A DNA stretch of 64,000 nucleotides from Escherichia coli O157:H7 (GTDB lineage Bacteria > Pseudomonadota > Gammaproteobacteria > Enterobacterales > Enterobacteriaceae): the NCBI RefSeq assembly GCF_013167455.1, contig NZ_CP038328.1. One strand, written 5' to 3'. Position numbers: made by a program. Shown here piece by piece: positions 56,801-59,800 of this stretch. The first letter of the stretch is position 1; the number at the start of each line of letters is the position of its first letter.

Positions 56801-59800
56801 GGCTCCGGCAATGGGGCTGAACGCCTTCTTTGCGTTCGTGGTCGTGGGGGCGATGGGTATCTCCTGGCAGACCGGGATGGGCGCGATATTCTGGGGCGCA
56901 ATTGGGCTATTTTTGCTCACGCTATTTCGTATCCGGTACTGGATGATCTCCAACATTCCATTAAGTTTACGTATTGGTATCACCAGCGGAATCGGATTAT
57001 TTATCGCCTTAATGGGATTAAAAAATACTGGCGTTATTGTCGCCAATAAAGACACTCTGGTGATGATTGGCGATTTAAGTTCTCACGGCGTGTTGTTAGG
57101 TATTTTAGGGTTTTTTATTATAACCGTGTTGTCATCACGTCATTTTCATGCCGCGGTGCTTGTTTCTATTGTGGTGACGTCTTGCTGTGGATTATTTTTC
57201 GGTGATGTTCATTTTAGCGGCGTCTATTCCATTCCGCCTGATATTAGCGGCGTCATTGGTGAAGTAGATTTGAGCGGCGCGTTAACACTTGAACTCGCCG
57301 GTATCATTTTCTCCTTTATGCTGATCAACCTATTTGATTCATCAGGAACATTAATTGGTGTAACTGATAAAGCTGGCTTAATAGATAGTAACGGTAAATT
57401 CCCCAATATGAATAAGGCGCTATATGTTGATAGCGTAGTTCGGTGGCGGGCGCGTTTATCGGCACCTCGTCTGTTACCGCCTATATTGAAAGTACTTCTG
57501 GTGTGGCAGTCGGTGGTCGCACGGGGCTGACTGCGGTTGTGGTCGGCGTTATGTTCCTGTTGGTTATGTTCTTCTCACCGCTGGTGGCGATGGTTCCTCC
57601 TTACGCAACCGCCGGAGCGTTAATCTTTGTTGGCGTGTTGATGACCTCAAGTCTGGCGCGCGTTAACTGGGATGATTTTACCGAATCGGTGCCTGCGTTT
57701 GTTACCACGGTGATGATGCCCTTTACTTTCTCGATCACCGAAGGGATTGCACTTGGCTTTATGTCGTACTGCATCATGAAAGTGTGCACCGGGCGCTGGC
57801 GCGATCTGAACCTGTGTGTGGTGGTGGTCGCAGCTCTGTTTGCACTGAAGATTATTCTGGTGGATTAGTAACTGGCGAGGGTTTCCAGATATCATGAGTT
57901 CTGATTACGCAGGAGAACTCATGATCTGGATAATGCTCGCCACGCTGGCGGTAGTGTTTGTGGTTGGTTTTCGGGTGCTGACATCCGGGGCCAGAAAAGC
58001 GATTCGCCGTCTCAGCGATCGGCTGAATATCGATGTCGTACCCGTGGAGTCGATGGTCGATCAAATGGGAAAGTCAGCCGGTGACGAATTTTTACGTTAT
58101 TTGCATCGTCCGGATGAGTCGCACCTGCAAAACGCCGCGCAGGTGTTGCTCATCTGGCAAATTGTCATTGTCGATGGTAGCGAACAGAACCTGCTGCAAT
58201 GGCATCGGATTTTACAAAAAGCCCGCCTTGCCGCTCCCATTACTGATGCTCAGGTCAGGCTGGCGCTGGGTTTTCTGCGCGAAACCGAACCTGAAATGCA
58301 GGATATTAATGCTTTTCAGATGCGCTATAACGCGTTCTTTCAGCCTGCCGAGGGCGTTCACTGGCTGCATTAAAACCGCTTCGTCTTATCAGCCTACAGA
58401 CCGCGCCTGACCTGTAGGGTGGATAAGGCGTTCACGCCGCATCCGGTATCGGAACTGACAGTAGGTGAACGCATTATCTACGTTCTATTTACAGCAGCAC
58501 CTCCAACCCGTGTTTTTGCACAATGCTGAGCAGTTTTAATGAAATGCCATTGGGGCGTTTAGCGCCACTTTCCCATTTTTGTACAGTTGAAACGCTGGTA
58601 TTGAGATAGTGAGCGAAGACGGGCTGACTCACTTTTAATTTTTCCCGCAGTGCTTTTATCTCAACAGGTTGTAAGTCTTGCACGCTGGTCAGGCAGGCTT
58701 TGTCAAAAGTACGCATCGTTTCAGCAGAAATAGCATTGACGCTGGACAATCCAGCCGCTGCGCTGTGAATAGCCTCAAATGCAGGACTTTTAAATTTAGT
58801 TTTTGCAGTCATAGCAGATCTCTGTCAGTTCTTTAGTGTTAATCATTGCTGTTAGTTGGGCTTTCGTCAGGAAGGCATAATGCTTTGCAATTTCACGAAA
58901 CCCAGCCAGTTCCTGACTATTGATGTTCGACATATCCTGTTTTGCATATAAAAACGTGTAAAACCAATTGCTTACCCCTTTCGCCAGAATAATTGCACGC
59001 TCACGATTTTGGTGAAGGCGCTTTTTAAAAACGCCACCGCCAAGTGCATCAGCTTTACCTTGTTCTGTTTCTAAAATGGCCCGGCACAACTCTTCATCTG
59101 TTATTGCATGAGACCTGGCTTCCCTTGCAAACCATTTGGTTTTAAACACGCGTATATCGTTGAGGTCCTGTTATTAAAGTATATCACCAAGTGCAATACT
59201 TTATCCCTTGTTCCCAACACAATCGCGAAAATACATATCACCTTGTCCTATGATTTTTATTTCTTCGAGCAGCCTCGAGCTTTTCCCACAACACCGTAAA
59301 AGTTGCAAAAACGTTAAATGCGTCACACATTTCAATGTTAAAGTGGTCGGCTTTTCCCCTGAAACATGCCACGGGTAACACCATGAGTGAATTTATTGCC
59401 GAAAACCGCGGCGCGGATGCCATCACCCGACCGAACTGGTCAGCCGTTTTCTCGGTGGCGTTTTGCGTCGCCTGTCTGATTATCGTTGAGTTTTTGCCTG
59501 TCAGTTTGTTGACGCCAATGGCCCAGGATTTAGGCATTTCGGAAGGGGTTGCCGGGCAATCGGTGACCGTGACCGCCTTTGTGGCAATGTTTGCCAGTTT
59601 GTTTATTACCCAGACAATTCAGGCCACTGACCGCCGCTACGTTGTTATTTTGTTTGCCGTTTTGCTGACGCTCTCCTGCTTGCTGGTTTCCTTTGCTAAC
59701 TCATTCAGTTTGCTTTTAATCGGTCGTGCCTGTCTGGGGCTGGCGCTGGGCGGGTTCTGGGCGATGTCGGCGTCGCTGACCATGCGTCTGGTGCCGCCGC

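What the first reader, a model, noticed from the sequence alone, without database searches (positions are those of the whole stretch)
58489..59149. Overlapping two-gene toxin-antitoxin-like module inserted between yicN and nepI
A 117-aa ORF (58796-59149) overlaps by 17 nt a 107-aa ORF (58489-58812) carrying an XRE-like HTH. Size, order (toxin-like gene first, HTH gene second), overlap and flanking REP element fit a higBA-type type II TA module. I do not recall any genes between yicN and nepI in K-12.
Basis: partly seen in the sequence, partly recalled or inferred. Interest (0 to 1): 0.55.

Follow-up and report, generated by a model that had tools for sequence, protein, structure and literature searches.

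The report
HigBA2-type toxin-antitoxin pair, already annotated
The two overlapping small genes between yicN and nepI are a toxin-antitoxin pair of a known, already annotated family (HigB-2 toxin with HigA-2-like repressor); about a third of complete E. coli genomes carry it, and this O157:H7 copy has lost the toxin's normal ATG start codon.

Summary
ORFs 58796-59149 (117 aa) and 58489-58812 (107 aa) lie on the minus strand and overlap by 17 nt. A REP element sits on the yicN side, and K-12 has no genes here.

The downstream protein has a C-terminal XRE helix-turn-helix closest to V. cholerae HigA-2 (E 8e-10). A palindrome over an extended -10 element, conserved in nine genera, is the likely operator.

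RefSeq already annotates the pair as a type II TA system. It occupies this site in 1716 of 5426 complete E. coli genomes.

- The pair is not an O157 insertion. It occupies the same nepI-yicN site in Citrobacter and Klebsiella, and sits beside nepI in Salmonella.
- The family-wide ATG start of the toxin is ATA in O157:H7 (629 genomes). Other lineages carry dead toxins beside intact antitoxins, so this copy may be attenuated.

Known kind; low interest.

The parts
58796..59155 (-). higB2-like toxin gene. The ancestral start codon is 59155-59153, which is ATA here and ATG in other alleles (119 aa, MRVFKT...). Predicted catalytic residues are R44, R51, Y68 and K70 (117-aa numbering).
58489..58812 (-). 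higA2-like antitoxin and autorepressor gene, 107 aa. The N-terminal ~45 residues are the putative toxin-neutralising segment. Residues ~46-102 form the XRE-type HTH dimerisation and DNA-binding domain.
   Evidence: HTH_3 E 1.2e-7. Best solved relative is V. cholerae HigA-2 (5jaa/5j9i), E 8e-10 over residues 46-102. It follows the toxin gene in all nine genera examined, with a 17-nt overlap in eight of them. In a toxin-linker-antitoxin AF2 model, antitoxin residues ~5-35 reach pLDDT 90-95.
59182..59196 (.). Candidate operator. The core is an inverted repeat, TTGCAC-TTG-GTGATA on the coding (minus) strand, inside a longer 13/3/13 palindrome at 59175-59203.
   Evidence: the repeat finder I1. In nine genera the only conserved upstream block is TAGCAC-N3-GTGCTA at this position. 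V. cholerae HigA2 likewise binds a single inverted repeat that extends over the -10 element (PMC11006873). Binding here is inferred, not shown.
59178..59186 (-). Putative extended -10 promoter element, TGaTATACT on the minus strand. It overlaps the right arm of the palindrome. There is no good -35.
   Evidence: TGnTATA(C/T/G)T is conserved in all nine genera. The consensus scanner, which demands a -35 hexamer, reported no promoter. This element is an inference from conservation.
59166..59169 (-). Shine-Dalgarno core AGGA of the toxin gene. It lies 10 nt before the ATA/ATG codon and 16 nt before the annotated GTG.
   Evidence: ACAGGA is conserved in eight of the nine genera. Spacing was read from the sequence.
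58449..59288 (.). Extent of the segment present in O157 and in 1716 complete E. coli genomes, and absent from K-12-like genomes, where about 47 bp of unrelated sequence stands instead. G+C is 43%, against 52-53% in yicN and nepI.
   Evidence: Alignment with two empty sites, genome counts, composition.
58421..58446 (+). REP element core abutting the left edge of the segment. It is also present in K-12, so it is flank and not part of the module.

Best explanation
This is a chromosomal type II toxin-antitoxin operon of the HigBA-2 family, transcribed on the minus strand from a promoter next to the divergent nepI gene.

Proposed mechanism:
- Toxin: the first gene encodes a RelE-fold toxin that would enter the ribosomal A site and cut translating mRNA, using a RelE/HigB2-type site (R44, R51, Y68, K70).
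- Antitoxin: the second gene overlaps the first by 17 nt. Its N-terminal segment would fold onto and neutralise the toxin. Its C-terminal XRE helix-turn-helix dimer would bind a palindrome overlapping an extended -10 element and repress the operon.
- O157:H7 allele: the ancestral ATG of the toxin is ATA. Toxin synthesis must therefore rely on a ~1-2%-efficiency AUA or on a GTG poorly spaced from the Shine-Dalgarno sequence. This copy is probably an attenuated version of the module.

Shown here: family membership, fold similarity of a predicted model, residue conservation, gene pairing, the operator footprint across genera, the start-codon change, and population counts.

Inferred only: toxicity, mRNA cleavage, neutralisation, repression, and the quantitative effect of ATA.
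For: Toxin family and fold
- Full-length PF06296 match, E 6.5e-39. V. cholerae HigB-2 (Q9KMA6) belongs to PF06296, whose members are ribosome-dependent mRNases with toxin-antitoxin gene order (PMC11980606).

Catalytic residues
- Family member P0285 (E 3e-11 to the query) hits HigB-2 chains at E 0.005.
- That alignment, and a profile alignment, place VcHigB2 R51, R64, Y82 and K84 on R44, R51, Y68 and K70. Alanine substitutions of the V. cholerae residues cost 170- to 3000-fold activity (PMC5416850).
- R44, R51 and K70 are invariant or nearly so in the family alignments; position 68 is Tyr or Phe.

Antitoxin
- E 8e-10 to V. cholerae HigA-2, with the same HTH-at-C-terminus layout.
- In the fusion model the toxin's pLDDT rises to 91-96 and antitoxin residues ~5-35 reach 90-95.

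Pairing and selection
- A toxin gene followed by a 107-aa HTH gene occurs in all nine genera and on plasmids of other Proteobacteria.
- dN/dS is 0.14 or less for the toxin and 0.055 or less for the antitoxin.

Operator and promoter
- TAGCAC-N3-GTGCTA overlapping TGnTATAnT is the only conserved upstream block in nine genera. This matches the single-operator-over-the--10 layout of V. cholerae higBA2.

Start codon
- All non-E. coli homologues begin MR[VI]FKT.
- 1086 E. coli genomes have ATG and 629 have ATA.
- AUA initiates at about 1-2% of AUG (bioRxiv 10.1101/063800).

Indirect evidence of toxicity
- Two independent lineages have nonsense or frameshifted toxins beside intact antitoxins.
Against: - No experiment on this locus was found.
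- Direct sequence and profile searches of the toxin against PDB found nothing. The link to HigB2 therefore rests on Pfam, on a predicted fold with modest Foldseek E-values (about 1e-2), and on a transitive alignment of low score (10.7 bits).
- The Lys/Gly-rich beta2-beta3 loop is absent here, six residues shorter. Replacing that loop costs VcHigB2 120-fold activity.
- The toxin has no NCBIfam, PADLOC or PHROG match.
- The promoter scan found no sigma-70 site by its criteria.
- The fusion model gives no coordinates or PAE, so the interface is not verified.
- A related 'HigB-like' toxin, SehA, turned out not to be an RNase (PMC12817084). Fold alone does not prove the mechanism.
Confidence: 0.8

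Rival explanations
1. Decaying module. In O157:H7 the toxin is effectively silent because its start codon is lost. Only the antitoxin matters, as an orphan repressor or as an 'anti-addiction' factor against incoming HigB2-type toxins.
For: The ATG is ATA, leaving only a GTG 16 nt from the SD. O157:H7 also carries toxin-specific substitutions, G to V in KGGSN and L to I. RS571-like genomes combine ATA with W8stop and a 1-nt deletion, and about 160 genomes fall in that identity class. Strain TR01 has an internal stop. The antitoxin is intact in all of these. The antitoxin is also the more conserved partner: 79-84% versus 67-70% amino-acid identity between genera.
Against: The O157 toxin ORF is otherwise intact, and all four predicted catalytic residues are retained. 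RefSeq calls it a CDS, not a pseudogene. The in-frame GTG and the near-cognate AUA can both initiate. The antitoxin has only a weak SD of its own (GAGA, read), so it may depend on translation of the toxin frame.
Confidence: 0.3
2. Recently acquired genomic islet. The pair was inserted by horizontal transfer into the yicN-nepI spacer of the O157 lineage.
For: The segment has low G+C (43% against 52-53% in the flanks). It is absent from K-12 and from 68% of complete E. coli genomes. Family members occur on conjugative plasmids of other Proteobacteria. Synonymous divergence of the TA genes between genera (dS above 1.8) exceeds that of nepI (about 0.8).
Against: The site and orientation are the same in C. 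koseri, C. freundii, K. oxytoca and Salmonella. Within E. coli it is chromosomal only, one copy, always at this site (5418 places, none on plasmids). It spans distant lineages (O157:H7, O55:H7, O145:H28, ST131 O25b:H4, O157:H16) with synonymous divergence of 0.04-0.08, comparable to or below that of nepI. No direct repeats, integrase or transposase flank it. Close relatives (60% identity or more) are not on real plasmids or phages.
Confidence: 0.1
3. The toxin has a RelE fold but is not an mRNA endonuclease. It would inhibit growth by binding another target, as Salmonella SehA does with RNase III.
For: SehA shows that HigB-like toxins can lack RNase activity (PMC12817084). This subfamily lacks the ribosome-contacting beta2-beta3 loop of VcHigB2 and has two extra C-terminal helices.
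Against: SehA is a different protein: its partner SehB is about 143 aa or more, and its residue numbering does not map. SehA lacks conserved active-site residues, whereas the R/R/Y/K set is conserved here. The only characterised PF06296 member is a ribosome-dependent mRNase.
Confidence: 0.07

Closest known systems
Vibrio cholerae HigBA-2 (HigB-2 Q9KMA6 / HigA-2; PDB 5JA8, 5JAA, 8A0X)
   Same: - The toxin is in the same Pfam family, PF06296.
- HigB2 is the best structural match to the model.
- The gene order is toxin first.
- The antitoxin has a non-globular N-terminal part followed by a C-terminal XRE-HTH, E 8e-10.
- Equivalents of the catalytic R51, R64, Y82 and K84 are present.
- A single palindromic operator overlaps the -10 element.
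   Different: - Toxin identity is only about 14-20%, and direct sequence searches do not connect the two.
- The Lys/Gly-rich beta2-beta3 loop is missing.
- The antitoxin N-terminal part is about 8 residues longer.
- All four base-contacting residues differ: R68/E71/N72/R77 become S75/Q78/K79/A84.
- The operator is TAGCAC-N3-GTGCTA-like rather than TGTACGC-N5-GCGTACA.
- The location is a conserved core-genome spacer rather than the superintegron.
HigBA of plasmid Rts1 and E. coli K-12 HigBA (YgjN/YgjM)
   Same: The gene order is toxin first, the toxin belongs to the RelE/ParE superfamily, and the antitoxin carries an HTH.
E. coli RelBE
   Same: The fold is RelE-like and the catalytic site is arginine/lysine/tyrosine-based with no His-Glu pair. 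The HigB2 paper stresses this similarity.
Salmonella SehAB
   Same: It is an enterobacterial HigB-like, toxin-first module with an HTH antitoxin.
   Different: It is not orthologous. SehB is about 143 aa or more, and the functionally important SehA residues do not map. SehA inhibits RNase III rather than cutting mRNA. Salmonella carries a separate true orthologue of the present pair next to nepI.
MqsRA and NadS-type HTH proteins
   Same: The antitoxin HTH gives sub-threshold matches to MqsA (TIGR03830, PF15731) and to NadS (NF041265).
   Different: Scores of 41 bits are below the curated cut-offs of 60-62. Only the HTH half of MqsA aligns, and the CxxC zinc domain is absent. The toxin is not MqsR.

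Membership tests
PF06296 (HigB-2 / 'PF_RelE') toxins | Significant full-length match to the family HMM | tested here: met
   E 6.5e-39, 133 bits, query 1-111 on model positions 3-120 of 120.
PF06296 (HigB-2 / 'PF_RelE') toxins | RelE/BECR fold closest to solved HigB2 | tested here: met
PF06296 (HigB-2 / 'PF_RelE') toxins | RelE-like catalytic set (VcHigB2 R51, R64, Y82, K84) | tested here: met
   The equivalents are R44, R51, Y68 and K70. R44, R51 and K70 are invariant or nearly so; position 68 is Tyr or Phe. The mapping is by transitive and profile alignments of low score.
PF06296 (HigB-2 / 'PF_RelE') toxins | Long basic beta2-beta3 loop that contributes to activity in VcHigB2 | tested here: not met
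   The loop is six residues shorter (KKRL-HQNRER) in the enterobacterial clade. Other family members, such as P0239, P0277 and P0285, keep it. It is a feature of the V. cholerae protein rather than of the whole Pfam family.
PF06296 (HigB-2 / 'PF_RelE') toxins | Ribosome-dependent mRNA cleavage and growth inhibition | not testable with these tools
   This needs expression and in vitro translation assays.
HigA-2-type antitoxins | C-terminal XRE-HTH domain homologous to VcHigA2 | tested here: met
   phmmer E 8e-10 over residues 46-102, aligned to 38-94 of 5jaa_A. HTH_3 E 1.2e-7.
HigA-2-type antitoxins | N-terminal segment that folds on and neutralises the toxin | tested here: inconclusive
   In the toxin-linker-antitoxin AF2 model, antitoxin residues ~5-35 reach pLDDT 90-95 and the toxin rises from about 70-88 to 91-96. 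No coordinates or PAE were available, and there was no antitoxin-only control.
HigA-2-type antitoxins | Single inverted-repeat operator overlapping the -10 of the operon promoter | tested here: met
   This is a phylogenetic footprint only: TAGCAC-N3-GTGCTA over TGnTATAnT in nine genera. The E. coli version is at 59182-59196. Binding was not tested.
Type II toxin-antitoxin operon (general) | Two small co-oriented, overlapping genes whose pairing is conserved across genomes and contexts | tested here: met
   The overlap is 17 nt here. The same pair occurs in nine genera at three or more different chromosomal contexts, and on plasmids.
Type II toxin-antitoxin operon (general) | Asymmetric decay: toxin genes inactivated while antitoxins stay intact | tested here: met
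   RS571 has ATA plus W8stop plus a 1-nt deletion. TR01 has an internal stop. The antitoxins are intact. The sample is small.
Rts1/K-12 HigB families (PF05015, PF09907) | Match to those HMMs | tested here: not met
   Only PF06296 was reported at E of 10 or less.
NadS (NF041265) / MqsA (TIGR03830) | Score above the curated NCBIfam cut-off | tested here: not met
   41.3 bits against a cut-off of 60, and 41.0 against 61.8. Only the HTH part aligns.
Known anti-phage defence systems (PADLOC) | Match of the toxin to a defence-system model | tested here: not met
   The toxin matches 0 families. The antitoxin gives only generic HTH hits.

The most novel reading that the evidence does not exclude
The module is a long-term resident of one core-genome spacer across Enterobacteriaceae and is now being disarmed in E. 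coli. More than a third of carriers, including the whole O157:H7/O55:H7/O145:H28 group sampled, have replaced the toxin's ATG with ATA. Further lineages have killed the toxin outright while keeping the repressor-antitoxin. If the ATA allele is a selected 'low-dose' toxin rather than a step to a pseudogene, it would be a natural example of tuning a TA system through a near-cognate start codon.
Probability: 0.35. Interest if true: 0.35.

Novelty: already known. Interest (0 to 1): 0.17.

Why it matters
For genome annotation the finding adds little. RefSeq already labels both genes, and the family has a structurally and biochemically characterised prototype in V. cholerae.

Four points are of modest use:
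- This E. coli locus appears never to have been tested experimentally.
- The RefSeq start of the toxin is probably two codons short in ATG-allele strains.
- EHEC O157:H7 carries a start-codon-mutant allele. Any toxicity or persistence experiment should therefore compare ATA and ATG alleles, not assume the O157 copy is representative.
- The conserved operator and the fixed chromosomal position across genera make it a convenient natural system for studying the loss and attenuation of chromosomal TA modules.

Tried and rejected
1. Direct phmmer of the toxin against PDB, and two family profiles (11 and 35 sequences), found nothing. The link to HigB2 had to be made through Pfam and the literature, a predicted fold, and an intermediate family member.
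2. I suspected the pair was orthologous to Salmonella SehAB, and this was rejected. SehB is about 143 aa or more, and the SehA residues Y53, R54, K56, H88 and others do not map onto the Salmonella PF06296 homologue P0036. The real Salmonella orthologue sits beside nepI.
3. NCBIfam, PADLOC and PHROGs gave no match for the toxin.
4. The sigma-70 and terminator scanner found no sites. The promoter proposal rests on a conserved extended -10 element instead.
5. I looked for remnants of the module in the ~47-bp K-12 filler. Similarity is near random, so it is uninformative on gain versus loss.
6. Between-genus dS was meant to test vertical descent. The TA genes are saturated (dS above 1.8) while nepI is about 0.8. 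Simple co-divergence is therefore not demonstrated, and allelic turnover or faster evolution remains open.
7. Literature searches by flanking gene names, by RefSeq protein accessions and by O157/EDL933 plus HigB found no study of this locus. A 2009 survey scored O157:H7 as HigB-negative (PMC2654758).
8. The fusion AF2 model could only be read through pLDDT and secondary structure, because no coordinates were available.
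Full report
**Observation.** The minus strand carries two ORFs, 58796-59149 (117 aa, GTG start) and 58489-58812 (107 aa, ATG start), which overlap by 17 nt. The window matches many E. coli O157:H7 chromosomes at 100% identity. RefSeq annotates the two genes there as 'type II toxin-antitoxin system RelE/ParE family toxin' (WP_001301594.1) and 'helix-turn-helix domain-containing protein' (WP_000125646.1), between yicN and nepI. A K-12-like genome and an APEC O78 genome have no gene between yicN and nepI. Aligned with them, window 58449-59288 (840 bp, 43% G+C against 52-53% in the flanks) replaces about 47 bp. It is also present in K-12, so it is flank.

**The toxin.** The 117-aa protein matches Pfam PF06296 over its whole length (E 6.5e-39). 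A recent survey of the RelE/ParE superfamily states that V. cholerae HigB-2 (Q9KMA6) belongs to PF06296. It describes the family as ribosome-dependent mRNases with toxin-before-antitoxin gene order (PMC11980606).

- Direct sequence and profile searches against PDB found nothing.
- An AlphaFold2 model (pLDDT 80.7) has V. cholerae HigB2 chains as its eight best Foldseek hits (probability 0.80-1.0, TM 0.45-0.59).
- A more distant family member, P0285 (E 3e-11 to the query), hits HigB-2 chains directly at E 0.005.
- That alignment, the family alignment and a profile alignment agree on the active site. VcHigB2 R51, R64, Y82 and K84, whose alanine substitutions cost 170- to 3000-fold activity (PMC5416850), correspond to R44, R51, Y68 and K70 here.
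- R44, R51 and K70 are invariant or nearly so across the family, and position 68 is Tyr or Phe.
- One difference: the basic Lys/Gly-rich beta2-beta3 loop of VcHigB2 is absent from the enterobacterial clade.

**The antitoxin.** Residues 52-96 match HTH_3. The best solved relative is V. cholerae HigA-2 (E 8e-10, residues 46-102 aligned to 38-94). The layout is therefore the same: a non-globular N-terminal part and a C-terminal XRE-HTH. In V. cholerae the N-terminal segment is disordered and folds onto the toxin.

I built a toxin-linker-antitoxin fusion with a block-diagonal alignment. In the AF2 model the toxin's confidence rises to 91-96, and antitoxin residues ~5-35 become strand-helix-helix-strand at pLDDT 90-95. 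This is suggestive of docking but unverified, because no coordinates or PAE were available. Matches to MqsA and NadS are below the curated cut-offs and cover only the HTH.

**Regulatory region.** I aligned the 110 nt upstream of the toxin gene from nine genera: Escherichia, Salmonella, two Citrobacter species, Klebsiella, Pantoea, Dickeya, Serratia and Yersinia. Only one block is conserved:

- an inverted repeat TAGCAC-N3-GTGCTA, whose E. coli version is TTGCAC-TTG-GTGATA at 59182-59196, inside the 13/3/13 palindrome found;
- an overlapping extended -10 motif, TGnTATAnT;
- then ACAGGA and the ATG.

V. cholerae HigA2 binds a single inverted repeat (TGTACGC-N5-GCGTACA) that extends over the -10 element (PMC11006873). 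Its four base-contacting residues, R68, E71, N72 and R77, align with S75, Q78, K79 and A84 here, which fits the different operator sequence. The consensus promoter scanner found nothing, as expected for a promoter with no -35. The promoter and operator are therefore inferences from conservation.

**Start codon.** All homologues outside E. coli are about 119 aa and begin MR[VI]FKT. Codon 3 is ATC in Salmonella, so ATG is the only start there. In O157:H7 that ATG is ATA (59155-59153). Four other E. coli lineages examined have ATG.

- Two 55-mer megablast queries were designed so that every seed word must span the variant base. They count 1086 complete genomes with ATG and 629 with ATA, out of 1716 carriers.
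- The ATA group includes O157:H7, O55:H7, O145 and O166:H15.
- The AGGA core lies 10 nt before the ATA/ATG codon and 16 nt before the GTG that RefSeq uses.
- AUA initiates at roughly 1-2% of AUG in E. coli (bioRxiv 10.1101/063800).
- The O157:H7 toxin also has G to V (KGGSN to KGVSN) and L to I changes.
- In RS571-like genomes (the 162 ATA genomes at 95-99% identity; 13 of 15 sampled rows in that class had no feature under the start region) the toxin additionally carries W8stop and a 1-nt deletion. Strain TR01 has an internal stop. The antitoxin is intact in both.

Recurrent toxin inactivation with antitoxin retention is indirect evidence that the intact toxin is costly. It also suggests that the O157 allele may be attenuated.

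- The same pair, in the same orientation, lies between nepI and yicN in C. koseri, C. freundii and K. oxytoca, and next to nepI in Salmonella.
- In Pantoea, Dickeya and Serratia it sits after argD/pabA-like genes. In Yersinia it is elsewhere again.
- Within E. coli it is single-copy, chromosomal, and always at this site.
- Its synonymous divergence within E. coli (0.04-0.08) is no greater than that of nepI.
- Close relatives are not on true plasmids or phages. More distant ones (56% identity or less) are on plasmids of rhizobia, Pseudomonas and Legionella, always with an HTH partner.
- One observation does not fit simple vertical descent. Between genera the TA genes are saturated at synonymous sites (dS above 1.8) while nepI is about 0.8. 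Faster evolution or allelic replacement remains open.
- Both genes are under purifying selection (dN/dS 0.14 or less and 0.055 or less).

**Comparison and verdict.** This is a member of the known HigBA-2 family. It is already annotated in thousands of genomes, and the family mechanism is established in V. cholerae. It is not the Rts1/K-12 HigBA family (no PF05015 or PF09907 hit). It is not SehAB either, a lead I followed and rejected. I found no experimental work on this E. coli locus.

The finding is correct but ordinary. The only points beyond the annotation are the start-codon-mutant allele in EHEC, the toxin pseudogenes in other lineages, the conserved operator, and the fixed position across Enterobacteriaceae.

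Noticed in passing
window 56457-57868 (+): adeQ is split over two reading frames (ORFs 56457-57530 and 57443-57868). RefSeq flags adeQ as a frameshifted pseudogene in O157:H7 PV15-279, while it is intact in the K-12-like and APEC genomes.
   Followed up: no
window 58489-58812 (-): The antitoxin matches PHROG family phrog_2104 (unknown function) over its full length, E 9.6e-27. The toxin matches no PHROG. Phages therefore seem to carry HigA2-like proteins without this toxin.
   Followed up: no
L004-L007 (E. coli ATG-allele loci), toxin CDS at 569-922: RefSeq starts the toxin at the GTG (117 aa) even in strains that have the upstream ATG. The family-wide N-terminus MR[VI]FKT and the SD spacing indicate that the true start is two codons earlier.
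   Followed up: partly
L014 (strain RS571) 572-879; L015 (O157:H7 strain TR01) 571-924: These are toxin pseudogenes (ATA plus W8stop plus a 1-nt deletion in RS571; an internal stop in TR01) next to intact antitoxin genes. TR01 is labelled O157:H7 yet carries the ATG allele.
   Followed up: partly
L008, L010, L017, L021 versus the window: The TA pair occupies the same nepI-yicN spacer in four genera. Its synonymous divergence between genera is saturated (dS above 1.8) while neighbouring nepI has dS of about 0.8. Faster evolution or allelic replacement is unresolved.
   Followed up: partly
L012 (Pantoea), L019 (Dickeya), L020 (Serratia), about 2270-3680: A second recurrent chromosomal site for the same TA pair lies directly after an aminotransferase-glutamine amidotransferase (argD/pabA-like) gene pair in three genera of other Enterobacterales families.
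   Followed up: no
window 59235-59256: A second copy of ATATCACC (GGTGATAT on the coding strand) lies 54 nt upstream of the operator palindrome. It is not conserved in other E. coli lineages or other genera, so it is probably chance.
   Followed up: partly
window 58417-58482 (+): A sub-threshold Rfam naRNA4 (REP-derived sRNA) match, 32.9 bits against a gathering score of 59.5, runs from the REP into the first 34 nt of the O157-specific segment.
   Followed up: no
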